13,143 bases of DNA from a virus (lineage: Duplodnaviria > Heunggongvirae > Uroviricota > Caudoviricetes). The stretch lies in IMG/VR virus record IMGVR_UViG_2917413769_000007, positions 1-13,143 of that record. One strand, 5' to 3'. The position numbers and the translations under genes were made by a program. This document shows positions 1,756 through 12,357 of the stretch, piece by piece (the first letter of the stretch is position 1; every line of letters begins with the position of its first letter). A model generated the notes under the pieces. The model saw only the letters and a list, made by a program, of their open reading frames with translations, was not told where the DNA came from and ran no database searches.

Positions 1756-1793
1756 TGGTCTTTCCTCATTGTATTTCACGCTGGTCAGGCGTT

Positions 1794-3182
1794 TTAGAAT
1801 GCGTCGGTGTTGTACTTCTCTGCATACTTCCGTTGCTGTTTTCTGGGTTTTGCTGCCTCCAGTTGAATACGGGTCTTCTCTTTGCCGACGAGCTGATCGA
1901 TTGGCAGAAAGTGACCGTTTTTAAATTCCTGATAAACCACAGTACCAGCAGCCGCAAACCGGCATTTGCCGAGAATGACCTCAGCCACACCAGCCGCCGG
2001 GCTTTCAGGGTTATAAACTTCATCGCGGTACAGAAACAGGATGCTGTCAGCGTCCTGCTCGATGGAACCAGAATCACGCAGGTCTGACATTACCGGGCGA
2101 CGCTGCGCCGCCGGACGCGTATCAACCGCGCGGGAAAGCTGGCTGAGCGCAAAGGTCGGTGTATGTAGCCGCATAGCCATCGTTTTGAGATTGCGGGAAA
2201 TGTGCGCTACGGCAAGGTCGTTACGCTCTGCTTTCGGTTTCTTAATCAGGCCGAGATAGTCGACCATGATCATTGCCAGATGCGGATGGCGTCGCTTGTG
2301 TGTCTCCGCGATAGCGCGGATCTGTTCGACTGTGAGATCGGTCGCATCGACAATCCAGATGTCCCTGTCTGTAAGTTCTCCAATGGCTGCGGTCAATCTC
2401 GCCCAGTCCTCGTCGTACATGTCCTGAGGATTACGCAGGCGAGAAACGGACAAGTTTCCGGCACCAGCTAGCGAACGTTCAACAATCTGAGCCGCCGCCA
2501 TTTCCATGCTGAAAATCAACGCGCCGCCGCCCTTTGCCGTCACACCTTCAACGACGGTAAGCGCAAACTCTGTTTTACCCATGCCTGGGCGACCAGCCAC
2601 GACAATAAGATCCTGCGGGTTAATACTGCCTGTTGCGTTATCAAGATCCGCAATACCAGTCAGCAAATTGCGCGTGGATTCGTCACCGTCCATACGTTTC
2701 TGTACTGTGTCCATGTAAGCGGGCAAAAGCTCGTTGATGTGTACCGGCTGAACGTCGCCACTATCAGCAGTCATGTCCAGCAGCTGCGCCACTGCATTTT
2801 CGACCACTTGATCTCGTTGCTCCTGGTTGGCAGCTTTGCGGATGCCGTCAGCGCCATCCTGCAGAAGTTTCGCCAGCGCGCGGCTGCGCCAGGCCTTAAC
2901 CATCTTCCCGGCATACCCTTTCAGGTTCGGCACCGTTGCGGGGATACGGGATATTTCAGACAGGTCAGCCAGACTTGAACCGCCCAGCGCTTCGCTGATG
3001 AATAACATGTCGATCATGCCGTTAGTCAGCGCCTGTTTTTTTATCTCGCTGAATGTACGGCGATGAAAACCAATGCTGAATGATTCTTCTGGCGTGGAGG
3101 CGATCACGTCAAATGCGTCAGGAGAAGCACCGCCATTCAACAGGCCAGCCAGCACACACGCTTCCAGTTCCTGAGGATTCAT
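1794..3182 (-). CDS. Replicative DNA helicase, DnaB family (phage-encoded)
   Basis: 462-aa ORF; Walker A GRPGMGKT followed by other DnaB-like C-terminal-domain sequence (IVVAGRPGMGKTEFAL, SMEM, MIMVDYLGLI, SQLSR); start ATG overlaps the upstream gene stop as ATGA (3182..3179). Confidence 0.9.
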   Translation of the reverse strand: MNPQELEACVLAGLLNGGASPDAFDVIASTPEESFSIGFHRRTFSEIKKQALTNGMIDMLFISEALGGSSLADLSEISRIPATVPNLKGYAGKMVKAWRSRALAKLLQDGADGIRKAANQEQRDQVVENAVAQLLDMTADSGDVQPVHINELLPAYMDTVQKRMDGDESTRNLLTGIADLDNATGSINPQDLIVVAGRPGMGKTEFALTVVEGVTAKGGGALIFSMEMAAAQIVERSLAGAGNLSVSRLRNPQDMYDEDWARLTAAIGELTDRDIWIVDATDLTVEQIRAIAETHKRRHPHLAMIMVDYLGLIKKPKAERNDLAVAHISRNLKTMAMRLHTPTFALSQLSRAVDTRPAAQRRPVMSDLRDSGSIEQDADSILFLYRDEVYNPESPAAGVAEVILGKCRFAAAGTVVYQEFKNGHFLPIDQLVGKEKTRIQLEAAKPRKQQRKYAEKYNTDAF

Positions 3183-4432
3183 AATGCCTCTTCCCTGGTT
3201 TTACGCAGTGTTTCGGGTTTCATGAGATAATCAAAACTGGCACGCCAGCCGTCGTGATGCTCGCCACCGAAATAAAATTCAGGAGCGGTGTTGCGAAATT
3301 TCTCAAGGTATCCCAGAAACGCGCCTGTAGTTTTATTGATCATGTGGGCTGCGAGGCGTGTAATCATCTGGCGGCGATCGGCGTCCAGGGTTGCAGCAGG
3401 TAGCACATCAGCAAAAATTTCGTTGTAAGCATCGACTACCGCAACCGGATCAATACTGGCTTCGGTGGTGGCCCATGCCTCAGCGTCAGCCAGATAACCA
3501 TCGAAGCGGCATACTCGACAGATATTTGCCGGTTTAGGGAGGCTGTCACCCCGGCGGCGCCAGGTAGCCAGTACCCAACGAATAACTAACTGAACATCAT
3601 CCAGCGTATAGCCGTCTCGGGTAGTCGTAGGGGTCATAAGCGCCAGGAACGGCTTCATGTCACGGCAGCGAGTACCGGTTTGCACATTGTAAAAATCTAG
3701 TGCTTTTTTAGCATCTGCAAGGATTTGTTCGCGGGAAATATTAGCAACCGAGGATGTTTCTGGATGCGCACCAATCACAGTGATCCCGTCAAATTCGTAG
3801 CGTTCTGTAATTACGCCATCTCTGACCAGAATAAAGCCATCACTAAGCTGTTTTAATTTTGTTATGGATTTATCCCGCACGTTGATTCGATCAATTTCAA
3901 TACCGCATTGTTCACCATCGCTTCCAGTTACTAGTAAATCAACGCGGCCTCTGCGACCGTTACCACGATCAGCTACCGGGTATTCGCGCTGGCAGTCAAA
4001 GCCTGCACCAACAATCGCAGACTCAACAGCATCGTGAAGCTCACCTGCTTTTTCAAAATCAAATTTACCTTCGAGAAGGGAAATCAGTTGCTCACGCAAT
4101 ACATGTCCGCCAACTCTCCCAACGGGAGATTTAGAGGGATATATATTCTCTGTAGTAATCTCTGTATGAATATTTGCTGGTTTTCCACTTACTTGTCTGG
4201 TGGTTTTCCGCACTCCAGTATGTGTTTTTTCCGCATTCTTGTTTGCGGCTATAAGTACCTGATATAAAAACGTCATTATCAACCTTGTAGAAAAGTCGAG
4301 CAGGAACACCTTTTCGTTTTTCCAGCAGTACACCAATTGAGCGAAGTTTTTTACGCGCCCCTTCCTGCTCATAGCGAGAAAGGCCTGTTTCTTCTTCCCA
4401 TTCTTCTTGGGTTTTATATACCCACCCGTCAT
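3179..4432 (-). CDS. Replication initiator (O-like), downstream frame: central nuclease-fold-like segment plus conserved phage replication C-terminal domain
   Basis: C-terminal 170 aa (GYTLDDVQLVIRWVLATWRRRGD...EFYFGGEHHDGWRASFDYL) resemble the conserved C-terminal domain of phage replication initiators, by recollection. The first ~50 codons of the tracked ORF are out-of-frame translation of the N-terminal domain; likely continuation of 4131..4556 across a frameshift. Confidence 0.65.
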   Translation of the reverse strand: MTGGYIKPKKNGKKKQAFLAMSRKGRVKNFAQLVYCWKNEKVFLLDFSTRLIMTFLYQVLIAANKNAEKTHTGVRKTTRQVSGKPANIHTEITTENIYPSKSPVGRVGGHVLREQLISLLEGKFDFEKAGELHDAVESAIVGAGFDCQREYPVADRGNGRRGRVDLLVTGSDGEQCGIEIDRINVRDKSITKLKQLSDGFILVRDGVITERYEFDGITVIGAHPETSSVANISREQILADAKKALDFYNVQTGTRCRDMKPFLALMTPTTTRDGYTLDDVQLVIRWVLATWRRRGDSLPKPANICRVCRFDGYLADAEAWATTEASIDPVAVVDAYNEIFADVLPAATLDADRRQMITRLAAHMINKTTGAFLGYLEKFRNTAPEFYFGGEHHDGWRASFDYLMKPETLRKTREEAL

Positions 4433-4558: not shown

Positions 4559-4783
4559 TCAAATCCCCAGAGTTTCGGCGATTTGACGACATGCCGCCTG
4601 ATATTCCTCAGATGACAATTCCATTTCACGGAGTTCTTCTTTCAGTTTTTCATACTGCGCCCAGATAGATAGCGCAGCTGCGCGACGGCCTTCGAAAATA
4701 TCTTCGATATCATCCAGGGTGGCTGGCACCCCGTTTAGTCGAAATCCGTTCCGCCATGTAATGCGGTCGATTGAAGTCAGCAT
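4559..4783 (-). CDS. Hypothetical small protein (74 aa) between the YdaT-like and O-like genes
   Basis: ATG at 4783..4781 preceded by GAGGAAAGACCAAT (complement of 4787..4797); product MLTSIDRITWRNGFRLNGVPATLDDIEDIF...; no family recognised. Confidence 0.6.
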   Translation of the reverse strand: MLTSIDRITWRNGFRLNGVPATLDDIEDIFEGRRAAALSIWAQYEKLKEELREMELSSEEYQAACRQIAETLGI

Positions 4784-4805
4784 ATTGGTCTTTCCTCGAT
4801 ACAAG

Positions 4806-5252
4806 TTAAACGCTGGTCAGGCGCTGTGTTTCCTGTATGGCTTGTAATGCCTGCGCTATACGCTGGGGTCGATCCCTTGCTTCAAGCAACAGAGCAATAA
4901 TCGCCGCGGCAAAATCACGAATCGCAATGCAAATTAACTGCTGAGTGGTCATTCCCAGCTGTGCATATCGTTCCGCAGGCAACGCAGCTTCCATCGCCAT
5001 GGCCAGCGCTTTCGTTTTGATTCTTGCCGCTTTCGTCTCACCACGTAGCCAGCGAAAAATCTGCTGCCGGTTGTTGTTGATAGCCCGCCAGTCAGCATTA
5101 CCTTTCGAATCCTCCATCGGGTGAAGTTTTACGTAGCTGGTATTGCCACCCATTCGAAACCACATGCGAGTGATCTCAATAGCAACATGTTCCTGGCCAC
5201 GCTCAGCAGCCCAGTTGAAGATTTCTCTTTTCAGTTCGTCGAGGTTTTCCAC
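4806..5252 (-). CDS. ydaT: YdaT-like protein (Rac-prophage YdaT family)
   Basis: 148-aa ORF with GTG start and AGGAG 10 nt upstream; segment WRAINNNRQQIFRWLRGETKAARIKTKAL matches my recollection of YdaT; located directly downstream of the Cro-like gene as in Rac. Confidence 0.7.
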   Translation of the reverse strand: MENLDELKREIFNWAAERGQEHVAIEITRMWFRMGGNTSYVKLHPMEDSKGNADWRAINNNRQQIFRWLRGETKAARIKTKALAMAMEAALPAERYAQLGMTTQQLICIAIRDFAAAIIALLLEARDRPQRIAQALQAIQETQRLTSV

Positions 5253-5275
5253 TTCGTCGCGTCTCCTGTCGCTGA

Positions 5276-5298
5276 AAACCTGATTAAGCGTAATCAGA
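5276..5298. repeat. 23-bp element AAACCTGATTAAGCGTAATCAGA with internal palindrome, copy 1
   Basis: Identical to 10629..10651. Contains CTGATTA-AGCG-TAATCAG. Lies between the Cro-like and YdaT-like genes; on the transcribed (minus) strand the hairpin is followed by GUUUUC. Confidence 0.5.
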
Positions 5299-5316
5299 TT
5301 TCAAATACGCTCTTTG

Positions 5317-5517
5317 TTAAGCTGCAGTTGTGTTGTTCGGTTCCAGATAAAATTCGGGGTCATATTTCAAAGCCCCATCAGTAACACGATCCAACCTTGC
5401 AGCTCGGCGCTCAGGTATCACATTTCCCCAGCGAGATACTGCTGGAAGTGAAACTCCTGCGGCTCGAGCCAGCTTTGTGGCGCTCCCAAAGAACGCTAAA
5501 GCATCGTTTTTAAACAT
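5317..5517 (-). CDS. dicC: Cro-like HTH regulator, DicC/YdaS family
   Basis: 66 aa, MFKNDALAFFGSATKLARAAGVSLPAVSRWGNVIPERRAARLDRVTDGALKYDP, matches DicC/YdaS pattern from memory; divergent from the repressor gene; SD GGAG 7 nt upstream of ATG. Confidence 0.8.
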   Translation of the reverse strand: MFKNDALAFFGSATKLARAAGVSLPAVSRWGNVIPERRAARLDRVTDGALKYDPEFYLEPNNTTAA

Positions 5518-5598: not shown

Positions 5599-6009
5599 AT
5601 GAACAAAATCAGCCCTGGCGAGCGCATTAAAAAGCGACGTAAAGAACTCAACCTAACTCAGCGTGAAGTCGCAAAACTCGCGCAGGTATCGCACGTCACA
5701 ATCTCTAAATGGGAAAACGATGACAACGAGCCTCAGGGCAGGAACTTGTTCCAGTTGAGTCAGGCCCTGCAATGTTCACCCACCTGGATTTTATACGGGG
5801 ACGAAGACAAACAGCCCGAGCCTCCAGCAGTATCTGAAGAAGATAAGATCACATTAGATGAGCTTGAAGAGCAGCTACTCGAGCTTTTCAGGGCACTACC
5901 CAGTTCAGAAAAAGAACGCCATTTAACTGAGCTTCGCGGAAAAGTGGACGATTTTAATCGTCTGTTTTACGAATTGCTCCAAGCAAGAAAAACCTCCAAG
6001 AAAAAATAA
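5599..6009 (+). CDS. dicA: HTH (XRE-family) repressor, DicA-like
   Basis: 136 aa; HTH segment LTQREVAKLAQVSHVTISKWEN; LQCSPTWILYGDEDKQP and LLELFRALPSSEKE match my recollection of E. coli DicA; no peptidase S24 domain. Confidence 0.9.
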   Translation: MNKISPGERIKKRRKELNLTQREVAKLAQVSHVTISKWENDDNEPQGRNLFQLSQALQCSPTWILYGDEDKQPEPPAVSEEDKITLDELEEQLLELFRALPSSEKERHLTELRGKVDDFNRLFYELLQARKTSKKK

Positions 6010-6045: not shown

Positions 6046-6110
6046 TTTTATTTAACTTTTATAAACAAATTTATGTTGACTGATAATTTAACCTTTATTA
6101 AATTAACTTC
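6046..6110 (+). promoter_or_regulatory. Candidate early-left promoter with second operator copy
   Basis: TTTAACTTTTATAAACAA (6051..6068) matches the 5534..5551 operator-like 18-mer at 15/18 positions; followed by TTGACT (6076..6081), a 17-nt spacer and TAAATT (6099..6104). Confidence 0.4.
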
Positions 6111-6217
6111 CATCAACGACGCACTAACCACGCGGCAGTTGTTCAGAAAAACGTTCCGCCGCCGGGCGTAAAGCGGATGAGGGAATCGGCGCTAACAACA
6201 AAGCAATGGGGTGAGTG

Positions 6218-6535
6218 ATGGAATTCAGCAAGCTGCCACACGAAGTGCAGGTAATTGCCGCCAAATGCCTGGCAGACGAAATCAATACAGTTTCAGGTTT
6301 TGCAGGCAATGAGGTTAACCGCGGTCCCGCTAAAGAGCAGGCCAAACAGGTTCGTGACGCATTCATTGCTCTTTTTTCAGAGCGCGAGATGGAAGGTGAG
6401 AAAAAAGCGGCAGCAGAGAGAATTGCTGCCACCATCGCAGGCATGCAGCAACTGATTGGTAGCGATGAGGTGCTAAAAACCCAAGTTAAACATCTGATTT
6501 CAGCGACTGAAGATTTGCTTGATAAGTGCCTGTAA
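6218..6535 (+). CDS. Hypothetical protein (105 aa), first gene after the repressor
   Basis: Coding-like composition (MEFSKLPHEVQVIAAKCLADEIN...); GGGGTGAG upstream of ATG; the opposite-strand ORF 6124..6576 is low complexity and judged non-coding. Confidence 0.55.
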   Translation: MEFSKLPHEVQVIAAKCLADEINTVSGFAGNEVNRGPAKEQAKQVRDAFIALFSEREMEGEKKAAAERIAATIAGMQQLIGSDEVLKTQVKHLISATEDLLDKCL

Positions 6536-6736
6536 TTGGTAAGTGACCGATACACCATCTCCGTTAGATGGTCCATCTACATCAGGAAATCGAAGGGTGA
6601 CATTGTTTTTAAGGGCTTTTAGTTGTTCTGAAGTTAACAGTTTAAGGGCTTCATCAAGCATTACGTTTGTTGCTTCCAGAGTGGCTTCTGAGACTTTTGG
6701 CTTAATTTCCTCAAGCATTTTAGAAAGTTGACTCAT
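6500..6736 (-). CDS. Hypothetical protein (78 aa), convergent with 6218..6535
   Basis: Internal ATG at 6736..6734 of the tracked ORF is preceded by AAGG 7 nt upstream; product MSQLSKMLEEIKPKVSEATLEATNVMLDEALKLL...; candidate -10 TATACT (complement of 6769..6774). Confidence 0.4.
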   Translation of the reverse strand: MSQLSKMLEEIKPKVSEATLEATNVMLDEALKLLTSEQLKALKNNVTLRFPDVDGPSNGDGVSVTYQLQALIKQIFSR

Positions 6737-6885
6737 GTTTTTACCTTGCTGGTTATGTGAGAACGCCCAGTATACCACCGAGCCTGAAGTGGCTAAAAGA
6801 CAGGCAACGAATTCGCGGGTCGCCGCCAGTACGATGACATGCGGGAAAGACCGCAATGAATCCAAAATTGCTGTGTGTAGTCTTT

Positions 6886-6912
6886 GCCCAGCCACCACGG
6901 TGGGCACTTTTT
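6886..6912 (+). terminator. Candidate intrinsic terminator (plus strand)
   Basis: GC-rich hairpin GCCCA-N10-TGGGC (or CCAC-CACG-GTGG) followed by ACTTTTTTTC. Confidence 0.45.
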
Positions 6913-7111
6913 TTCACACAGTTACGATTTTACCGTTGTGACTGAGTCTCCAGACGGAGAGGCCAAACCCACAATGTGACACCAGGGAAAGACCGAAGGA
7001 AGTACAACGCCTGACCAGCGTAAACCGAGCATGACCAGCTCTGGCACCGGGGAAGACCGGAAGAGGAAAGACCTGATGGCCTCACCAGCCTGACTGCCGG
7101 GAAAGACCGGC

Positions 7112-7148
7112 ACCCTTTAGATGGCAAAAGGCCCGCACAAGGCGGGCC
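7112..7148 (+). promoter_or_regulatory. nut-like element: boxA-like CCCTTTAG plus boxB-like hairpin
   Basis: CCCTTTA (7113..7119) resembles boxA CGCTCTTTA; 11 nt later a perfect 7-bp GC stem GGCCCGC/GCGGGCC with 5-nt loop ACAAG (7130..7148), not followed by a U tract. Confidence 0.25.
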
Positions 7149-7276
7149 AGTTACCCCGGGCGGCGACCAAACCACCCGGATTGTTCCGCAGGGGACCAAC
7201 CCTGCGGAGAGGAAAGACCAATGCAGGACAGAGCCAACACTGATCGGCTCTGAGTATATATCACTAAGGAGCCGCT

Positions 7277-7600
7277 ATGGAAGCGCTAACCATCCCCGTA
7301 AAGCTGTACATCCATTACAACGCCAACACTTTCTCTCAGGAAAAAATCATTGTCGCCACCTGTGACATGTCACGTAGTTTTCCAGATCAATATGTCTTGC
7401 TGGAAACGCGCAATATATCCATCGATGTAAACCAACCAGAGCCATTCGACATTATTGCTCTGCAGGTCGACCAGTTGCGTGACCAGAAAGAGAAAATCGC
7501 AACTTTGGCGCAAAGTCAGATAGCCCAGGTTGACGACAAAATACAGCAACTGCTCTGTATTGATCACTCACCTGTTCAGGAAAGCGACATCCCATTTTGA
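7277..7600 (+). CDS. Hypothetical protein (107 aa) immediately upstream of the annealing-protein gene
   Basis: Strong SD TAAGGAG 6 nt upstream of ATG; coding-like acidic protein; no family recognised. Confidence 0.65.
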   Translation: MEALTIPVKLYIHYNANTFSQEKIIVATCDMSRSFPDQYVLLETRNISIDVNQPEPFDIIALQVDQLRDQKEKIATLAQSQIAQVDDKIQQLLCIDHSPVQESDIPF

Positions 7601-7695
7601 TCAACCGGCGCCAGACCAGCGCCAGTAACCAAAGAGGAAAGACCAAGTGACAATTTATAACTGTCTGTTCGAGCCGAAGAAATCTGCTATCAAGG

Positions 7696-9918
7696 ATGGT
7701 GCTGTTGCATTGGCAATCAGCATCGAAGCGCCAAATAAAAAAAGTCGCTGAAAGTATCATCATCGGCAAACTCTGGGAGCATTATCCTGCAAATGGCGAC
7801 AACTATTTTAAACCTAAAATCTGGGAAGATTCAGAGGGCCAGCCTCGTCCGGAAGTCGGAAAATTTGATGAGCAATTTGCTCAGGCGAACACATTAGACG
7901 GGGAAAAGTGGATCGCCAACGATTCAGACACCAGTACTTTAAATTTGCCAGCCAACGACGAGATAATCGATCTGACGAAGCTGCCAGCTCGTGAACGCTT
8001 CATTGCCATTCTTATGTTCAGTGATTCCCCCATTGACGGTGTACTGTACTCTCAGGTGCTGGATTATCTTGATAATCTGGAAAATAGCCACGAGCCGTTT
8101 GATGATGACGATCGGCTGAATTCTAATATTCTTCATGCCCTGGAAAATAACGAACCCGTTCGTCACATGCATGTTGAGGGGGTAAACAATCTGATTCAGG
8201 CCATCTTCGCTAAATTTGAAGGCCAGGCACCGGGTAAGGCAGCAATTTCACAGTTCATTAAACGCTGGATGGAAAATCCTCGTAAGCGTGAAGAAATGCG
8301 GCCGGAAAATACCGCATTGAATAATGATGGTGTCAACAATGACAGTAACAAAGTAGCACCACAGCGCGGATATAAGCATTCTTATGCCACACTGGATCAG
8401 GAAATTGCCCTCGCCCTTCTCCCGATTAATTTCACAGAAACAGTATCAGTTCGTGCGCTACGATCTGCTGAACACATCATTGAAGAAGACCGAGAAGATT
8501 TCAAACGCTGGTCAGCGGCACTACGTACGACAGAGCAGATCCTGAAGTATGACCGCCCCAGTGTTTTTGGCGTTATTCAGAATGCACCTGCTAAAGATAC
8601 ATACCATTTCCCTGAGTCACTGCGGCACCATATTGATTCCTGGCTGGCTGAAAATGGTCAGTTCGAGTGTGCTGGTACTGATGCGGAGAGAACCAGCAAA
8701 CTGCTTGCGGCAGAGCGCGGCGAGTACGTCGAAGGTATCAGCGACCCTAACGATCCTAAATGGGTTAAAACAGATTCCCAACCTCAGGTATCAAACCTCG
8801 GCAATGGAATGTTCTCTGTTGATAATCTTCTGCCTGAAACCGCCTCAAAGGAAGGTGAAAAACAGGAAGTGACCGAACAAGGAACTGTTACAGAAGACCA
8901 GGCAACACAGGCCCGAGAAAAGTTGAACAGCATGGGTTACGGCGTTTATGCAACGAACCATGACGAAACTGACCAGCAGGAAGAAAAGCTGAGCGATAAA
9001 GTAAAAACTCTCGTTCAGGATGCGGATCAACTTGTCGAGCGCGTTAAACGTGAAGAGCAGCTCCCGCAGGCATCTGAACTGGTTCAGAGCATCAACGAAA
9101 TGCAGTCTACTGAACGCGATAACCTGGAATTGTGGAAAGAGGTGTTCAAAACAGATGAGCGTTTTACTACTGCGTTCTCTGTGAATGGCGGCGGAACCTC
9201 AATCAATGGCACCTACATGACCATGATCGCTACCCGCGAATTTGGTCCGAAAGGTATCGGCTGGGGTGTGGATATTCTTGAAGAACGCTTTGACGATGGC
9301 GCGCCAATTACTCGCGCAGTCAAAGGGACTGACGGTAACAATACATGGGAGTTTATTCCCGACGGTGTAGGCGGCATCCTGACAGAGAAACACCACGTTA
9401 TCAAAATCAGACTTTGGTACATCCGGAATGGTGCGCGCGGTGAAGAGATTTCATTCGGGTGTACCCCGTATATTTACGGCAGCAAATACGGCCCTATTTG
9501 CGATGGTGAAGCGACAAAAAAATCACTGACTGACGCAACCAAAAAAGCGCTGTCTGCACTTGGTTTCTGCGCTGATATTTTCATGGGCCTGTACGATAAC
9601 CCGGAGTATCGCCAGAAAAATAAAGCAGAATTCGCGCTCAAAAACGCCAGCGAAAACGCCGAGGATGCCGCCCGCGTACGTCAGGAACTGGACGACAAAC
9701 TGACCCGAGTCGCTAACACCATTGCATCTGCTGTATCAGAGCACGAGATCAACAAGGTCTATTCTTCGATTGCTCGCGAAGCGGAGGTGCATCGCAAGGA
9801 TGCAGAGGCGAAAGGTGACACACAGCATGCCCGTTACTTAGGTGGGCGTCTGCGTCGCCTGACAACTATCAAAGATGGACGTATCGCCGAACTGAAAAAA
9901 GTACAGGAGAAAGCATAA
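7696..9918 (+). CDS. Large protein with C-terminal Erf/Rad52-like single-strand annealing domain and ~470-aa unknown N-terminal region
   Basis: 740-codon ORF; residues ~480-640 (EATKKSLTDATKKALSALGFCADIFMGLYD) match the Erf (GATSSYARKYCLNGLFGIDD) and Rad52 helix motifs from memory; tracked ATG 7696 has no usable SD; see frameshift finding. Confidence 0.8.
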   Translation: MVLLHWQSASKRQIKKVAESIIIGKLWEHYPANGDNYFKPKIWEDSEGQPRPEVGKFDEQFAQANTLDGEKWIANDSDTSTLNLPANDEIIDLTKLPARERFIAILMFSDSPIDGVLYSQVLDYLDNLENSHEPFDDDDRLNSNILHALENNEPVRHMHVEGVNNLIQAIFAKFEGQAPGKAAISQFIKRWMENPRKREEMRPENTALNNDGVNNDSNKVAPQRGYKHSYATLDQEIALALLPINFTETVSVRALRSAEHIIEEDREDFKRWSAALRTTEQILKYDRPSVFGVIQNAPAKDTYHFPESLRHHIDSWLAENGQFECAGTDAERTSKLLAAERGEYVEGISDPNDPKWVKTDSQPQVSNLGNGMFSVDNLLPETASKEGEKQEVTEQGTVTEDQATQAREKLNSMGYGVYATNHDETDQQEEKLSDKVKTLVQDADQLVERVKREEQLPQASELVQSINEMQSTERDNLELWKEVFKTDERFTTAFSVNGGGTSINGTYMTMIATREFGPKGIGWGVDILEERFDDGAPITRAVKGTDGNNTWEFIPDGVGGILTEKHHVIKIRLWYIRNGARGEEISFGCTPYIYGSKYGPICDGEATKKSLTDATKKALSALGFCADIFMGLYDNPEYRQKNKAEFALKNASENAEDAARVRQELDDKLTRVANTIASAVSEHEINKVYSSIAREAEVHRKDAEAKGDTQHARYLGGRLRRLTTIKDGRIAELKKVQEKA

Positions 9919-10472
9919 TGACTACTGCAATCGCGTTAGCTGCCGACTATACCAACCTGCTGCAATTGCTGGAAAGCTCAGATGAACTGACTCCGGAAAT
10001 GATCGCCGATACTCTGGAAGGCATTGAAGGAGAACTGGCGGATAAGCTGGATGCCATCATGGTATTAGCCCGCAATAATCTCGGACATGCCAAAACCTGT
10101 GATGAGGAAATGAAGCGCCTGGCGGAGCGCAAAAAGTCTTTCGAAAATAAAGATAAAACGCTCAGGAAATATATTCTGTCGTGCCTTATGGCCGCGAATC
10201 TGGATAAGCTCAAGACACCTAAAAACACTTTCACTGCCCGTAAAGGCAGCATCAGCGTTGTGATCGATAACGAAAAGCTATTGCCTGATGATCTGGTAAC
10301 TGTTCAGACGATTATCGCCCCGGACAAAAAAGCCATCAAAGAGGCAATCGAGGCTGCGGAAGCTGCCGCAGCGCAAATCACCGCTGATGGCGGTGAAGTA
10401 CCTGCCGAACTGTTAAACCCGGTACCGGGCGCCCATCTTGAGATCGGCGAACGTTCATTGCAGGTGCGCTGA
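9918..10472 (+). CDS. Siphovirus Gp157-like protein (companion of Erf/Sak-type recombinases)
   Basis: 184 aa; start ATG overlaps the upstream stop (TAATG); KTPKNTFTARKGSISVVIDNEKLLPDDL matches my recollection of Gp157 proteins; a Mu-Gam-like assignment is not excluded. Confidence 0.6.
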   Translation: MTTAIALAADYTNLLQLLESSDELTPEMIADTLEGIEGELADKLDAIMVLARNNLGHAKTCDEEMKRLAERKKSFENKDKTLRKYILSCLMAANLDKLKTPKNTFTARKGSISVVIDNEKLLPDDLVTVQTIIAPDKKAIKEAIEAAEAAAAQITADGGEVPAELLNPVPGAHLEIGERSLQVR

Positions 10473-10473
10473 T

Positions 10474-10656
10474 ATGCTGAAACTATCTCTCAAACGTGGC
10501 GATGCGGTACATGTTGTTCTCCCTGACGGTAGTAACGGAATTATTGAAGCCCGCAGCCGTTGTGAACTGGGTATGCGTCTGCCGAAAAACGTGAAGGTTA
10601 CGCGTGAGAAAGGCGCATTCCTCCCTGCAAACCTGATTAAGCGTAATCAGAAATAA
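10474..10656 (+). CDS. Hypothetical small protein (60 aa)
   Basis: ATG at 10474, 2 nt after the upstream stop; product MLKLSLKRGDAVHVVLPDGSNGIIEARSRCELGMRLPKNVKVTREKGAFLPANLIKRNQK; 3' end is encoded by repeat copy 2. Confidence 0.45.
   Translation: MLKLSLKRGDAVHVVLPDGSNGIIEARSRCELGMRLPKNVKVTREKGAFLPANLIKRNQK
10629..10651. repeat. 23-bp element AAACCTGATTAAGCGTAATCAGA, copy 2
   Basis: Identical to 5276..5298, same orientation on the plus strand; overlaps the stop region of 10474..10656. Confidence 0.5.
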
Positions 10657-10705
10657 AACCCCGCTACCGCTAGCATTGCGGCCTCACTATTCACAGGAGG
10701 TCGCA

Positions 10706-10903
10706 ATGCTGCGATGGCAACCCGGAGCTACTCTGCTCACAGATTTCGATATAAAGATTGGCCGGTTATCGGCAAGCGTACGAAAGAAGACACTGACCCA
10801 GTCCGACATCGAACGCGCCTGCAGTGATGCTGACGACGCTGTGTACCGGATGATGAGGAAAGACCAACATGACCAGAGAAAACGATCTGCTAACAGACGC
10901 TGA
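10706..10903 (+). CDS. Hypothetical small protein (65 aa)
   Basis: Internal ATG at 10706 preceded by AGGAGG with 5-nt spacing; product MLRWQPGATLLTDFDIKIGRLSASVRKKTLTQSDIERACSD...; 3' end overlaps the xis-like start by 35 nt. Confidence 0.5.
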   Translation: MLRWQPGATLLTDFDIKIGRLSASVRKKTLTQSDIERACSDADDAVYRMMRKDQHDQRKRSANRR

Positions 10904-11093
10904 ACTGATTGAGTTTACCGGCTATCAGAAACCATCCAAACAACGGGAAATACTGGACCGTGGCGGCGTGTCGTACATTCCCGACCGGGAAGGACGCCCG
11001 ATGGTTACCTGGACACATATCAACGCTGTACTGAACGGACAGATCACCGTGCAGACCAGTACAGAAGAGAAACCCGATTTTGGAGCTATTTAA
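10869..11093 (+). CDS. Excisionase-like protein (DUF4224-type)
   Basis: 74 aa directly upstream of and abutting the integrase gene; LLTDAELIEFTGYQKPSKQREILDRGGVSYIPDREGRPMV fits the int-adjacent small-protein pattern from memory; preceded by GAGGAAAGACCAAC. Confidence 0.65.
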   Translation: MTRENDLLTDAELIEFTGYQKPSKQREILDRGGVSYIPDREGRPMVTWTHINAVLNGQITVQTSTEEKPDFGAI

Positions 11094-12113
11094 ATGGGGC
11101 GCAGAAGAAAGGATCCGGGTGATAACAGGTTACCCCCGCGCGTATCAAAAACCAGAACTCGTTACTACTACAAACCCACCTCGCGGGAGACCGTGACGCT
11201 TGGACCAATCACCTTCACTATGTCGGCGTTATGGAAACGGTACGAAGAAGAGCGACGCAATTATTCAGATGTGATGACGTTCGAAAAGCTCTGGAAGATG
11301 TTTCTTAAAAGCGCCTACTACACCGAGCTTGCAATACGAACCCAGCGGGATTACCTGCAACATCAGAAAAAACTACTTGTCGTATTCGGTAAAGTTAAAG
11401 CTGATTTAATCAAACCGGAAGACGTTCGTCAGTTTATGGATCGTCGTGGCCTACAAAGTAAAAATCAGGCTAACCAGGAAATGAGCAGTATGTCGCGTGT
11501 TTACCGCTGGGGATACGAACGCGGTTACGTTAAGGGAAACCCGTGCGCCGGCGTCAGTAAATTCTCTCTCAAGGCCCGCGAGCAATACATCACTGACGAA
11601 GACTACCTGGCGATTTATAAACATGCAGATCACGTCGTCAGGGCAGCAATGGAAATATCGTACCTGTGCGCAGCCCGGCAAGCTGATGTACTCGCTCTGC
11701 GCTGGATGCAGATATCTGACAAGGGGATTTTTATCCAGCAGGGTAAGACAGGGAAAAAGCAAATTAAGGTGTGGACGCCCCGCCTTCGGCAGGCGCTGGA
11801 AACGGCACAGACAGAATGCCCGAGGCTCTCACCTGATTCACTGGTTATCTATAACAACGATCGTGCTCAGTTCATCCGCAAGACGTTCAATAATCGCTGG
11901 CTAAAGGCCGTACGTGCCGCACAAAGCGAACTGGGCCGGCAACTGGATTACACGTTTCACGATATAAAGGCAAAAGCCATTTCAGATTTTGAGGGGAGTA
12001 GCAGGGATAAGCAGATATTTAGCGGTCACAAAACAGAAAGTCAGGTGCTTATCTACGACAGAAAGGTGCAAATCAGTCCGACGCTGGATCGTCCTTTGAT
12101 AAATGGCCAGTAG
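11094..12113 (+). CDS. int: Tyrosine recombinase / phage integrase
   Basis: 339 aa; alignable by eye to lambda Int catalytic region: AARQADVLALRW (Arg-I), QQGKTGKK (Lys), TFHDIKAKAISDF (His box), FSGHKTESQVLIYDRK (His-II and Tyr). Confidence 0.9.
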   Translation: MGRRRKDPGDNRLPPRVSKTRTRYYYKPTSRETVTLGPITFTMSALWKRYEEERRNYSDVMTFEKLWKMFLKSAYYTELAIRTQRDYLQHQKKLLVVFGKVKADLIKPEDVRQFMDRRGLQSKNQANQEMSSMSRVYRWGYERGYVKGNPCAGVSKFSLKAREQYITDEDYLAIYKHADHVVRAAMEISYLCAARQADVLALRWMQISDKGIFIQQGKTGKKQIKVWTPRLRQALETAQTECPRLSPDSLVIYNNDRAQFIRKTFNNRWLKAVRAAQSELGRQLDYTFHDIKAKAISDFEGSSRDKQIFSGHKTESQVLIYDRKVQISPTLDRPLINGQ

Positions 12114-12212: not shown

Positions 12213-12357
12213 GTCCATTTTTCAGATATGGTCGGGTAGCGCGTATACCGAAAAACAGCCGAAAGGTTAAGGATACGGGCCGACTTTGCACGGTGTTCAA
12301 GTACCTGACCGCCCTGCTGAACACAGGGCTATCTGAACAAATGCAAAGGACATAAAA

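What the first reader, a model, noticed from the sequence alone, without database searches (positions are those of the whole stretch)
7006..7021. 16-bp identical sequence AACGCCTGACCAGCGT at two gene boundaries on opposite strands
AACGCCTGACCAGCGT occurs at 7006..7021 (plus) and as its reverse complement at 1778..1793, between the helicase stop and the next ORF. In both places it lies a few tens of bases upstream of a GAGGAAAGACC module in the same orientation. A related GACCAGCG lies at 7614..7621 upstream of the annealing-protein start. A composite boundary sequence shared by unrelated gene junctions suggests a linker for module exchange or deletion by homologous recombination.
Basis: seen in the sequence. 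Interest (0 to 1): 0.45.

Follow-up and report, generated by a model that had tools for sequence, protein, structure and literature searches.

The report
Shared hairpin-plus-ribosome-site cassette, antisense RNA target
The repeated 16-base sequence is a small RNA hairpin that, with a fixed ribosome-binding motif, sits in front of several early genes in a widespread family of enterobacterial prophages, and it matches a previously undescribed antisense small RNA predicted in the same region, which probably switches those genes off together.

Summary
AACGCCTGACCAGCGT occurs exactly at 7006-7021(+) and 1778-1793(-). A third copy lies at 4810-4825(-), and stem-variant copies lie at 7027-7041 and 7607-7623. 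Each is a 4-5 bp hairpin with the loop CUGACCA (called H1 here). At gene junctions it sits 10-16 nt upstream of GAGGAAAGACC(AA) (called SAS here), which holds the Shine-Dalgarno sequence 0-4 nt before the start codon. Both motifs are nearly invariant, always in the sense orientation and confined to early operons. They recur in 45 of 46 related prophage loci first collected (Citrobacter, Salmonella, Klebsiella, Escherichia, Serratia), and H1 stems show compensatory changes.

New finding: the minus strand of the leader (about 7124-7245) looks like a small RNA. It has a conserved -10-like hexamer, four covarying stem-loops whose G·U pairs exist only on that strand, and a terminator. It carries UUUCCUC/UUGGUC sequences complementary to SAS, and two UUGGUC loops complementary to the H1 loop.

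Best reading, at about 0.5 confidence: the H1-SAS cassettes are trans targets of this antisense RNA, which masks their ribosome sites.

Mosaic breakpoints are about three times enriched at the cassettes.

The parts
7006..7021 (+). H1 hairpin, leader copy. Stem ACGC 7007-7010, loop CUGACCA 7011-7017, stem GCGU 7018-7021. This is the reported 16-mer.
1778..1793 (-). H1 hairpin immediately after the DnaB stop codon, 10 nt upstream of SAS. Exact copy of the 16-mer.
   Evidence: 25.6 bits
4809..4825 (-). H1 hairpin AGCGC-CUGACCA-GCGUU, with a G·U pair on the mRNA strand. It lies inside the last codons of the cII/YdaT-like gene, 11 nt upstream of SAS.
   Evidence: I2; 26.9 bits
7607..7623 (+). H1 variant GGCGC-CAGACCA-GCGCC, between the 107-aa gene stop (7598-7600) and the RecE-like gene.
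   Evidence: 17.9 bits
7027..7041 (+). H1 variant GAGC-AUGACCA-GCUC in the leader.
   Evidence: 22.6 bits
7078..7090 (+). Degenerate H1 in the leader, GGC-CUCACCA-GCC. Relatives have GGGC-(A/C)UGACCA-GCCC here.
1757..1767 (-). SAS GAGGAAAGACC. ATG at 1755-1753 starts the 226-aa gene.
   Evidence: (I22)
4787..4797 (-). SAS GAGGAAAGACC. ATG at 4783-4781 starts the 74-aa gene (phrog_2465).
   Evidence: (I15)
7634..7644 (+). SAS GAGGAAAGACC. GTG at 7647-7649 starts the RecE-like exonuclease gene.
   Evidence: (D1)
10855..10865 (+). SAS GAGGAAAGACC without an H1. ATG at 10869 starts the DUF4224/Xis-like gene.
   Evidence: (D1)
7063..7073 (+). SAS copy in the leader, followed only by a 5-codon ORF. 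Belongs to a leader module of SAS, H1, UGAC and H2.
7209..7219 (+). Last leader SAS copy. Its complement is the anti-SAS segment of the predicted antisense RNA. It is followed by a non-conserved 10-codon ORF (7221-7253).
   Evidence: (I22)
7096..7111 (+). H2 hairpin GCCGG-GAAAGA-CCGGC. The second hairpin family has a GAAAGA loop. Other copies are at 6841-6854 (inside the RprA-like RNA) and 7047-7060 (loop GGAAGA). A GGGAAAGACCG at 6985-6995 lacks a clear stem.
   Evidence: (D3)
7124..7245 (-). Predicted antisense small RNA (anti-SAS RNA). It comprises SL1 (about 7245-7216), single-stranded UUUCCUC (complement of 7209-7215), SL2, SL3, and a terminator. The 5' end is not determined.
   Evidence: (-71.6 kcal/mol, z -7.5)
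7185..7208 (-). SL2 of the antisense RNA, UCCGCAGGG-UUGGUC-CCCUGCGGA. Eight of nine pairs show compensatory changes, and the non-Watson-Crick cells in my hand alignment of its variants are G·U on this strand only.
7156..7179 (-). SL3 of the antisense RNA, CCGGGUGGU-UUGGUC-GCCGCCCGG. It has two G·U pairs here that would be C·A mismatches on the + strand.
7126..7148 (-). Rho-independent terminator of the antisense RNA, GGCCCGC-CUUG-UGCGGGCC followed by UUUU. The run of A that gives the U-tail precedes the hairpin on the + strand in all 31 distinct versions.
7253..7258 (-). Invariant TATACT on the minus strand (TATAAT in some relatives), a candidate -10 of the antisense RNA. No convincing -35 was found.
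   Evidence: not found by the promoter scan
6076..6104 (+). PL-like promoter TTGACT-17-TAAATT that should drive the leader and the rightward early operon. An operator-like sequence shared with the cI-cro region lies just upstream.
6787..6915 (+). RprA-like small RNA with terminator, at the 5' end of the PL transcript. It contains an H2 hairpin.
   Evidence: (50.6 bits, below the gathering score of 70)

Best explanation
**What it is.** The 16-mer is the hairpin part (H1: 4-5 bp stem, loop CUGACCA) of a bipartite mRNA element. Its second part (SAS: GAGGAAAGACCAA) holds the Shine-Dalgarno sequence of the next gene.

**Shown.**
- This cassette precedes the 74-aa gene, the first gene after DnaB, the RecE-like gene and, without H1, the Xis-like gene.
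- Extra copies are stacked in the untranslated PL leader.
- The element is conserved as RNA on the sense strand across a large family of Enterobacterales prophages.
- The opposite strand of the leader's 3' part (about 7124-7245) has the anatomy of a small RNA. It carries a conserved -10-like hexamer, four covarying stem-loops that pair fully only on that strand, and a Rho-independent terminator. It also carries 5'-CAUUGGUCUUUCCUC-3', which is complementary to SAS plus the start codon, and two hairpin loops UUGGUC, which are complementary to the GACCA of the H1 loop.

**Inferred.**
- The RNA is transcribed.
- It pairs in trans with every H1-SAS cassette. The H1 loop, whose CUGA is a YUNR U-turn motif, serves as the fast loop-loop recognition site.
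- The anti-SAS stretch then covers the Shine-Dalgarno sequence and start codon. This blocks translation of a small set of delayed-early genes (excision, recombination and others).
- The sense leader, which is fully complementary to the RNA and carries extra decoy cassettes, would bind or titrate the RNA when PL fires.
- Recombination between cassettes is a side effect.
For: **Cassette anatomy and conservation.**
- Counts far exceed chance.
- Among 428 distinct contexts, 157 have both a hairpin and an ORF of at least 50 aa. The loop is CUGACCA in 116 of those 157. The stem-to-motif spacing is mostly 10-16 nt and the motif-to-start spacing is 0-4 nt.
- H1 covariation score is 0.300, against 0.159±0.014 in shuffles (0 of 500 as high) and at most 0.173 in slid controls.
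- G·U pairs occur on the mRNA strand: 17 against 6 A·C, and 5 of those 6 are at the outermost pair.
- The motifs are sense-only and early-operon-only.
- They are unchanged in Serratia and Klebsiella loci whose 107-aa protein is only 46-50% identical.

**Antisense RNA.**
- The minus strand folds at -71.6 kcal/mol, with z -7.5 and an MFE frequency of 0.47.
- In an 18-locus alignment, 97.3% of cells pair, against 87.5±0.7 in shuffles. Nineteen pairs carry changes on both sides, against 9.1±1.7. Covariation is 0.441 against 0.239. All are 0 of 500.
- G·U cells on the minus strand number 53, 12 and 48 in SL1, SL2 and SL3. Read on the plus strand, the same helices give 2, 3 and 2.
- The independent plus-strand consensus fold recovers SL2 with 11 A·C cells and no G·U, and does not recover SL3 as a helix.
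- All 31 distinct versions have TATA[AC]T, the anti-SAS 32-55 nt downstream, then a terminator with a T-run.

**Pairing.**
- A 15-nt perfect complement exists between 1753-1767 and 7209-7223 (I22).
- Cofold ddG is -13.9 to -17.5 kcal/mol for the four SAS start regions, against -2.1 for cro.
- In the complete phage BUCT709, the four SAS genes rank 1, 3, 5 and 6 of 54 gene starts.
- YUNR loops are general enhancers of antisense-target pairing (PMC4485353).
Against: - No expression data exist. The promoter rests on a -10-like hexamer alone, with no good -35 (one search did not list it), and the 5' end is unknown.
- The complementarity is partly automatic. The antisense strand of one leader cassette is necessarily complementary to its paralogues, so pairing potential does not prove trans action. 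The RNA could act only in cis on the leader.
- Part of the anti-SAS (UUGGUC) is paired in SL1 in the predicted fold. Only UUUCCUC is free.
- Loop-loop pairing with H1 is only 5-6 bp. H1 loop variants such as GUGACCU would keep only 4 bp.
- The Xis-like gene has SAS without H1.
- H2 hairpins (GAAAGA loop) are not explained by the model.
- The strand-asymmetry count used helices predicted on the minus strand, which favours that strand.
- Two non-SAS genes also score well.
Confidence: 0.5

Rival explanations
1. The H1-SAS cassette is an operator for a sequence-specific RNA-binding protein. Because the motifs are invariant across genera, this could be a host factor such as CsrA acting on the GGA of SAS and H2, or another protein. 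It would control translation of the cassette genes, and the leader array would act as a loading pad or sponge, in the manner of CsrB. The antisense RNA would then be a separate, cis-acting regulator of the leader.
For: - The loop is conserved while the stems vary, which is the classic signature of a protein-bound hairpin.
- The motifs are invariant where flanking proteins have diverged strongly, which fits an invariant host partner.
- Several copies lie in an untranslated leader, some without ORFs.
- SAS and H2 contain AGGA or GGGA, the core of CsrA sites (own knowledge).
- H2 hairpins are left unexplained by the antisense model.
Against: - No candidate protein was found. There is no arginine-rich N-like ORF.
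- The conserved 107-aa first gene of the operon models as three strands plus a long helix, with no match to RNA-binding folds.
- The 74-aa and 107-aa proteins have no Pfam, NCBIfam or PDB relatives.
- CsrA would not explain conservation of AAGACC, or of the H1 loop, which lacks GGA.
- The antisense model explains both halves and their spacing with one partner.
Confidence: 0.2
2. H1 and H2 are boxB-like nut hairpins that load a processive antitermination factor onto RNA polymerase, so that it reads through the terminators of the early operons.
For: - H1 has a 5-bp stem, and its loop CUGACCA (variant CUAACCA) resembles the phage phi21 boxB hexaloop CUAACC (PMC12550061).
- The H2 loop GAAAGA resembles the lambda boxB loop GAAGA (own knowledge).
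- The PL transcript must pass the terminator of the RprA-like RNA. In many relatives it must also pass a second hairpin followed by a U-tract.
- The copies sit where immediate-early segments meet delayed-early segments.
Against: - No boxA lies next to the hairpins, and the spacers are not conserved.
- No N-like arginine-rich protein was found.
- The hairpins lie after, not before, the first terminators.
- There are 4-5 sites per genome at gene starts, rather than one per operon.
- SAS is tied to start codons at 0-4 nt.
- The second leader hairpin is a terminator on the minus strand in all members, but on the plus strand only in some.
- There is no similarity to the HK022 early region that holds the put sites.
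Confidence: 0.08
3. The composite is primarily a DNA linker, kept because it provides homology for exchange or deletion of gene modules.
For: - Breakpoints are enriched at cassette junctions, at 5.06 against 1.62 per kb at other gene starts, and cluster within about 50 nt.
- A 94-aa gene is bracketed by two cassettes.
- The number of leader modules varies from 1 to 3.
Against: - A DNA linker does not predict strand-specific orientation, compensatory stem changes with G·U on the mRNA strand, an invariant loop, or fixed spacing to start codons.
- The identity tracts (9-16 bp) are short for RecA-dependent exchange (own knowledge).
- The breakpoint counts suffer from related genomes being counted repeatedly and from crude gene calls.
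- A conserved island between divergent genes also attracts alignment ends without any recombination.
Confidence: 0.07
4. The cassette is an intercistronic processing and stability signal. RNase E would cut in the A/U-rich spacer, leaving H1 as a protective 3' hairpin on the upstream message and a standardised, open ribosome site on the downstream one.
For: - H1 always abuts the upstream stop codon, which lies 16 nt before to 15 nt after the loop start.
- The spacers are A/U-rich.
- The junction start regions are otherwise unstructured, with z from -0.7 to +1.5.
Against: - A 4-5 bp hairpin protects poorly.
- Nothing in this model requires the invariant loop sequence, or the AAGACC after the Shine-Dalgarno core.
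- It does not explain the leader arrays or the antisense RNA.
Confidence: 0.07

Closest known systems
Start-associated sequences (SAS) and extended SAS of Cluster K mycobacteriophages (Pope et al. 2011, PMC3203893)
   Same: Both have an asymmetric conserved motif of about 13 nt that contains the Shine-Dalgarno core and lies a few nt before start codons. In both it occurs in one orientation only, is restricted to non-structural genes, sits in front of unrelated gene families, and in about half the cases has an upstream inverted repeat. Function is unknown in both.
   Different: The sequence is unrelated (GGGATAGGAGCCC there) and the hosts and phages are unrelated. The authors found no compensatory support for an RNA hairpin in the extended SAS and favoured DNA binding. 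Here the hairpin covaries on the mRNA strand, and a complementary antisense RNA is predicted.
Phage antisense and repressor RNAs acting on ribosome sites: P1/P7 C4 RNA with its repeated a1/b1 and a2/b2 targets, P22 sar, lambda OOP
   Same: A short structured phage RNA pairs through loop sequences with a ribosome-binding region, and in C4 the target sequences are duplicated. The Rfam families C4 (RF01695) and c4-a1b1 (RF03163) were seen elsewhere in a related E. coli prophage. The mechanism is from my own knowledge.
   Different: There is no sequence or Rfam match for the RNA predicted here. It is encoded antisense to the PL leader and would act on 4-5 dispersed paralogous cassettes in both early operons. 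C4 is made from the same strand as its target. sar and OOP have a single cis target each.
YUNR (U-turn) recognition loops of antisense-controlled systems such as hok/Sok and CopA/CopT (Franch et al. 1999, as summarised in PMC4485353)
   Same: The H1 loop begins with CUGA, which is Y-U-N-R, and would present GACCA for pairing with the UUGGUC loops. A bipartite interaction of loop plus linear stretch is as described for such systems.
   Different: No kinetic or structural data exist here. The loop-loop helix would be only 5-6 bp.
Lambdoid nut sites (boxA plus boxB, with N protein), especially phi21 boxB
   Same: Both are short hairpins with 5-bp stems and conserved loops on early transcripts of a lambdoid prophage. 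The loop resembles the phi21 CUAACC hexaloop.
   Different: There is no boxA and no N-like protein. There are many sites, they lie at gene starts, and they are coupled to a ribosome-binding motif.
PeSL mobile regulatory cassettes of T4-like phages (Arbiol et al. 2010, PMC2839356; PMC4122927)
   Same: These are repeated composite regulatory motifs with a stem-loop that flank small genes and coincide with insertion, deletion and shuffling breakpoints (titles and abstracts).
   Different: PeSLs combine an early promoter with a terminator-like stem-loop. The cassette here has no promoter and instead carries a ribosome-binding site.

Membership tests
SAS/ESAS of Cluster K mycobacteriophages | Asymmetric conserved motif containing the Shine-Dalgarno core, a few nt upstream of start codons, in one orientation, in the non-structural half of the genome | tested here: met
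   The motif-to-start distance is 0-4 nt in the 157 distinct contexts that have both a hairpin and an ORF of at least 50 aa. The motif is sense-only. There are no copies in the 19-44 kb late region of the complete phage BUCT709.
SAS/ESAS of Cluster K mycobacteriophages | Consensus GGGATAGGAGCCC; the extended SAS is a 17-bp imperfect inverted repeat without compensatory support for an RNA hairpin | tested here: not met
   The motif here is GAGGAAAGACC. The upstream element is a 4-5 bp hairpin with clear covariation. It is an analogue, not a member.
Lambdoid nut site / N antitermination | boxB hairpin with a conserved GNRA-like or UMAC-type loop | tested here: inconclusive
   The H1 loop CUGACCA (variant CUAACCA, 5 contexts) resembles the phi21 CUAACC loop. 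No structural test is possible with these tools.
Lambdoid nut site / N antitermination | boxA (CGCUCUUA-like) adjacent to boxB | tested here: not met
   The sequences flanking H1 and the H1-SAS spacers are variable and unlike boxA.
Lambdoid nut site / N antitermination | An N-like arginine-rich protein encoded early in the PL operon | tested here: not met
   No such ORF was found. The basic 40-codon ORF in the leader is not conserved. The 107-aa first gene is a beta-sheet plus coiled-coil protein.
Cis-encoded antisense small RNA | Rho-independent terminator on the antisense strand | tested here: met
   A GC-rich hairpin followed by a T-run is present on the minus strand in all 31 distinct versions. 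Weak minus-strand Rfam hits are driven by it.
Cis-encoded antisense small RNA | Stem-loops supported by covariation on the antisense strand specifically | tested here: met
   97.3% of cells pair and 19 pairs carry changes on both sides, with 0 of 500 shuffles as high. There are 113 G·U cells on the minus strand, against 7 when the same helices are read on the plus strand. This is supported.
Cis-encoded antisense small RNA | Own promoter | tested here: inconclusive
   TATA[AC]T is invariant at a fixed position, but there is no acceptable -35 and the consensus scan did not list it.
Cis-encoded antisense small RNA | The transcript is detected and regulates its targets | not testable with these tools
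PeSL regulatory cassettes (T4-like phages) | Early promoter plus stem-loop composite | tested here: not met
   There is no sigma-70-like promoter in the cassette. It carries a ribosome site instead.
PeSL regulatory cassettes (T4-like phages) | Coincidence with indel and shuffling breakpoints | tested here: met
   Alignment ends occur at 5.06 per kb at cassette junctions, against 1.62 at other gene starts. A gene is bracketed by two cassettes.
RprA (Rfam RF00034), for the neighbouring small RNA at 6787-6915 | Score at or above the family's gathering threshold (70 bits) | tested here: not met
   The score is 50.6 bits. Only the 3' half, with the seed and terminator, aligns well.

The most novel reading that the evidence does not exclude
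A previously undescribed RNA-only control circuit in N-less lambdoid prophages of Enterobacterales. One antisense small RNA, made opposite the PL leader, holds translation of excision, recombination and other delayed-early genes off. It does so through a shared seed match embedded in the Shine-Dalgarno region, plus a U-turn hairpin. The PL leader is perfectly complementary to this RNA and is studded with decoy cassettes. It would act as a sponge, so that these genes are licensed only after PL has fired strongly. The result would be an RNA timer or threshold for commitment to excision.
Probability: 0.22. Interest if true: 0.8.

Novelty: new variant of a known kind. Interest (0 to 1): 0.6.

Why it matters
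These prophages are common. 551 of 5426 complete E. coli genomes match the leader region, and relatives occur in Citrobacter, Salmonella, Klebsiella, Enterobacter and Serratia. They lack a recognisable N protein.

If the model holds, it would add a new phage small RNA with a defined multi-gene regulon that includes the Xis-like and RecE-like genes. That would give a direct handle on how excision and recombination functions are kept silent or timed. It would also offer a concrete, testable mechanism for start-associated sequences, whose function has stayed open since 2011 in mycobacteriophages.

Finally, it shows how a regulatory RNA motif shared by several gene starts can double as a recombination hot spot that shapes phage mosaicism.

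Tried and rejected
- **Rfam.** No family covers the leader or the antisense RNA. Only weak minus-strand hits appear, driven by the terminator.
- **HK022 put RNA.** There is no similarity to the HK022 early region.
- **N-like protein.** No arginine-rich ORF was found. The basic 40-codon leader ORF (7121-7243) and the leader mini-ORFs change frame or vanish in relatives.
- **The 107-aa protein as RNA binder.** The AlphaFold model is confident (pLDDT 89.7), but it is three strands plus a long helix with no significant PDB fold match. The 74-aa and 107-aa proteins have no PDB, Pfam or NCBIfam relatives.
- **Promoter reading** (TGACCA as a -35). Rejected, because the stems covary and no -10 follows.
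- **Replication-strand signal.** Rejected. The orientation switches at the immunity region, not at the O-like gene.
- **H1 as a terminator on either strand.** The stems are too weak and the U-tracts inconsistent.
- **RprA-like RNA pairing with SAS.** Only 6 contiguous bp are available, so I dropped it.
- **Chi-like reading of GCTGGTCA.** Two mismatches at the critical end, so I dropped it.
- **Pattern scan of genome contigs.** It returned mostly chance hits in unrelated phyla. Only the Serratia and Escherichia hits looked genuine.
- **Literature search for the motif strings.** Nothing relevant was found.
- **Co-occurrence of window proteins with the motif.** Uninformative, because all core genes are present in nearly all loci.
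Full report
**1. Observation**

AACGCCTGACCAGCGT is exact at 7006-7021(+) and 1778-1793(-). A third copy with one mismatch lies at 4810-4825(-). Together that is 3 matches at up to 2 mismatches against 0.01 expected, and no shuffle reached 3.

GGAAAGACC occurs nine times exactly, and 11 times with up to one mismatch against 2.46 expected. It is always on the coding strand of the local operon: minus strand left of about 5500, plus strand to the right.

Two details of the finding need correction. The 7006 copy lies in a long untranslated leader, not at a gene boundary. The gene downstream of 7614-7621 is a RecE-like exonuclease, not an annealing protein.

**2. Genomic context**

The window is the early region of a lambdoid, Rac-like prophage.

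- **Leftward operon:** Cro-like 5317-5517, cII/YdaT-like 4806-5252, a 74-aa gene 4559-4783, O-like 3179-4432, DnaB 1794-3182, and a 226-aa gene 1075-1755.
- **Rightward:** CI-like 5599-6009, then a PL-like promoter at 6076-6104.
- **Insertion:** about 640 bp carrying two convergent ORFs.
- **RprA-like small RNA:** 6787-6915.
- **Leader:** about 360 nt.
- **Rightward early operon:** a 107-aa gene 7277-7600, RecE-like 7647-9918, Gp157 9918-10472, Xis-like 10869-11093, and integrase 11094-12113.

The closest protein relative (99% identity) is from Citrobacter. The family also occurs in Salmonella, Klebsiella, Raoultella, Enterobacter, Escherichia and Serratia. In E. coli, 551 of 5426 complete genomes match the leader region.

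**3. Anatomy of the element**

The 16-mer is a hairpin, called H1 here. Its stem is ACGC/GCGU and its loop is CUGACCA. Other copies keep the loop and change the stem:

- AGCGC/GCGUU at 4809-4825
- GAGC/GCUC at 7027-7041
- GGCGC/GCGCC at 7607-7623

At gene junctions, H1 sits 10-16 nt upstream of GAGGAAAGACC(AA), called SAS here. The GAGG of SAS is the Shine-Dalgarno core, and SAS ends 0-4 nt before the start codon.

This gave 428 distinct GGAAAGACC contexts.

- 157 have both a hairpin and an ORF of at least 50 aa.
- 33 have the ORF only; these include the Xis-like gene.
- 73 have the hairpin only; the remaining 165 have neither. Many of these lie in leaders.
- The loop is CUGACCA in 116 of the 157.

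H1 abuts the upstream stop codon, which lies 16 nt before to 15 nt after the first loop base. The cassette therefore fills the whole intercistronic gap.

The cassette precedes a few conserved positions that hold variable genes: the 74-aa family, the first gene after DnaB (several variants that share a DDGCD motif), an optional 94-aa gene, RecE, and Xis.

A second hairpin family, called H2 here, has the loop GAAAGA and variable stems. It occurs in the leader and inside the RprA-like RNA.

The leader is built of modules of SAS, H1, UGAC and H2, repeated one to three times. It folds far better than shuffled sequence, with z -5.0.

**4. Selection acts on RNA, on the sense strand**

I chose hairpins only by the anchor TGACC lying 15-32 nt before GGAAAGACC, which gave 123 distinct sequences.

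- The covariation score is 0.300, against 0.159±0.014 in shuffles (0 of 500 as high) and at most 0.173 with slid partners.
- The fourth pair is G-C 26, A-U 20 and C-G 15.
- Where exactly one of five pairs is not Watson-Crick, it is G·U on the mRNA strand in 17 cases and A·C in 6. Five of those 6 are at the dispensable outermost pair.

In the complete phage BUCT709, GGAAAGACC occurs 10 times. Eight copies are in the leader or just before start codons of early genes, and none is in the 19-44 kb late region. CGC-NUGACCN-GCG occurs four times, always before an SAS. A covariance model of H1 gives strong hits only in the early operons and only on the sense strand.

Serratia and Klebsiella prophages whose 107-aa protein is only 46-50% identical keep GGAAAGACC and CGCCTGACCAGCG unchanged at the same junctions.

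**5. A predicted antisense small RNA**

The hairpin at 7130-7148 is preceded on the plus strand by a run of A in every family member. It is therefore a Rho-independent terminator for leftward transcription. It is a plus-strand terminator only in some members.

All 31 distinct versions carry the same sequence of features on the minus strand:

- TATA[AC]T at a fixed position (7258-7253 here)
- GGTCTTTCC 32-55 nt downstream of it
- two hairpins with UUGGUC loops
- the terminator with its T-run

The minus-strand RNA 7247-7118 folds at -71.6 kcal/mol, with z -7.5. The minimum-energy structure takes 47% of the ensemble.

On 18 diverse loci the consensus has 33 pairs. Of the cells, 97.3% pair, against 87.5±0.7 in shuffles. 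Nineteen pairs carry changes on both sides, against 9.1±1.7. Covariation is 0.441 against 0.239. All are 0 of 500 shuffles.

The strand can be told from wobble pairs. The three helices hold 53, 12 and 48 G·U cells on the minus strand, but only 2, 3 and 2 if read on the plus strand.

This count is biased towards the strand on which the helices were predicted. Two other results agree with it, however. The independent plus-strand consensus recovers only the last hairpin, with 11 A·C cells and no G·U, and it does not recover SL3 as a helix. A hand alignment of 16 variants of that last hairpin shows 9 A·C cells and no G·U on the plus strand.

I conclude that the 3' part of the leader is under selection as a minus-strand RNA. 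The promoter is not established, because there is no good -35 and one search did not list it.

**6. The link to the finding**

The predicted RNA reads 5'-...CAUUGGUCUUUCCUC-SL2(loop UUGGUC)-SL3(loop UUGGUC)-terminator.

- The first stretch is complementary to SAS plus the start codon. It is a perfect 15-nt match to 1753-1767 (I22).
- UUGGUC is complementary to GACCA(A/G), which is the 3' part of the H1 loop.
- The order and spacing of the two parts on the target (H1 loop, about 15-20 nt, then SAS) fit antiparallel pairing with the RNA (SL2 loop, about 10 nt, then anti-SAS).
- The H1 loop starts with CUGA, a YUNR U-turn motif. Such motifs are described as general enhancers of antisense-target pairing (PMC4485353).

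Cofolding gives a net -13.9 to -17.5 kcal/mol for the four SAS start regions, against -2.1 for cro. The predicted duplex covers the Shine-Dalgarno sequence and the start codon. In BUCT709 the four SAS genes rank 1, 3, 5 and 6 of 54 gene starts.

**7. Most likely mechanism (confidence about 0.5)**

- **Shown:** the cassette, its conservation as sense RNA, the structured antisense RNA with its terminator, and the complementarity.
- **Inferred:** the RNA is made. It recognises H1 by loop-loop contact. It then masks SAS and so represses translation of the 74-aa gene, the gene after DnaB, RecE and Xis. The sense leader is fully complementary and carries extra cassettes, and it binds or titrates the RNA when PL fires.
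- **Weak points:** there is no expression evidence. Complementarity between paralogous cassettes and the antisense of one of them is automatic. UUGGUC of the anti-SAS is paired in SL1. The loop-loop helix is short. H2 is unexplained.

**8. Rival explanations**

- **A protein operator, about 0.2.** This could be a host factor, with the leader acting as a sponge. It fits the invariant loops and the unexplained H2. No candidate emerged.
- **A nut-like antitermination signal, about 0.08.** The loop resembles the phi21 boxB loop CUAACC. Against it, there is no boxA, there is no N protein, and the placement is wrong.
- **A DNA recombination linker as the primary role, about 0.07.** See point 9.
- **A processing and stability signal, about 0.07.**
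- **Chance.** Excluded.

**9.

Ends of segments at least 95% identical between 45 loci fall inside cassette intervals 75 times, against 18 expected under a uniform distribution.

| Location | Segment ends per kb |
|---|---|
| Cassette junctions | 5.06 |
| Other gene starts | 1.62 |
| Gene interiors | 0.70 |

 The ends cluster within about 50 nt of the motif.

In L024 and L043 a 94-aa gene is bracketed by two cassettes exactly where relatives have one.

There are caveats. Related genomes are counted repeatedly, my gene calls are crude, and a conserved island attracts alignment ends without any recombination.

The idea is partly supported, but as a consequence of a conserved RNA element and not as its reason for existing.

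**10. Comparison with what is known**

No Rfam family and no paper in the library matches the motifs.

The closest analogue in form is the SAS/ESAS system of Cluster K mycobacteriophages, whose function is still unknown. The closest in proposed mechanism are phage antisense or repressor RNAs acting on ribosome sites (P1/P7 C4, P22 sar, lambda OOP) and YUNR-loop antisense systems. For the recombination aspect, the closest are the PeSL cassettes of T4-like phages.

I rate it a new variant of a known kind, with interest 0.6.

Noticed in passing
window 6787-6915 (+): A prophage-borne RprA-like small RNA. The Rfam RprA score is 50.6 bits, below the gathering score of 70. Its 3' 50 nt (AAUUGCUGUGUGUAGUCUUUGCCC plus terminator) nearly match the RprA consensus. 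In relatives without the 640-bp insertion it lies directly downstream of the PL-like promoter. The seed is present in 35 of 45 loci. It could mimic host RprA.
   Followed up: partly
window 7647-7751 and 7696-9918 (+), A-run 7737-7743: The RecE-like gene is split by a frameshift. The window has seven A where close relatives (L002, L003, L012) have six. This is either a pseudogene or a homopolymer sequencing error.
   Followed up: partly
window 12230-12318 (+): An Rfam sRNA-Xcc1 match above threshold (68.3 bits against a gathering score of 53). It lies just beyond the integrase gene, next to a Stx-phage-like antirepressor gene.
   Followed up: no
window 5269-5305 and 10622-10658: A 37-nt direct repeat, 86% identical, containing the hairpin CTGATTA...TAATCAG. 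On the leftward transcript, between cro and the cII-like gene, it reads hairpin plus GUUUUC, which looks like a tR1-type terminator. The second copy has the opposite orientation relative to its operon (D2).
   Followed up: no
window ~6157-6790: An insertion of about 640 bp relative to relatives such as L002, between the conserved PL leader start (6111-6156) and the RprA-like RNA. It carries two convergent ORFs (6218-6535 +, 6500-6736 -) with no family matches, and it disrupts an H2-type hairpin present in relatives.
   Followed up: partly
window 7231-7274 (+): CGGCUC (7245-7250) can pair either with GAGCC (7231-7235) or with the Shine-Dalgarno region GGAGCCG (7268-7274) of the 107-aa gene. The second pairing is kept through G-C/G·U changes in 18 loci. 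This is a possible translational switch. It is coupled to the 10-codon ORF 7221-7253, which is absent in many relatives.
   Followed up: partly
window 6111-6156 (+): The transcript start after the PL-like promoter (CATCAACGACGCACTAACCACGCGGCAGTTGTTCAGAAAAACGTTC) is conserved across the family, Serratia included. It contains the hairpin CAGAA-AAACG-UUCUG. Its function is unknown.
   Followed up: no
L286 ~6960-7030 (E. coli CFSAN061769 prophage): Upstream of the RprA-like 3' part, this relative carries a tRNA-like fragment (GGTTCGATTCCGGG, a T-arm motif) inside the leader. Several IMG/VR loci (for example L029 and L034) share it.
   Followed up: no
L001/L165 (OM816835.1): The deposited 'Stenotrophomonas phage vB_SmeS_BUCT709' has its early region 81-83% identical to this enterobacterial prophage family, with the same gene order. 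All other relatives of the 107-aa gene come from Enterobacterales. The stated host looks doubtful.
   Followed up: no
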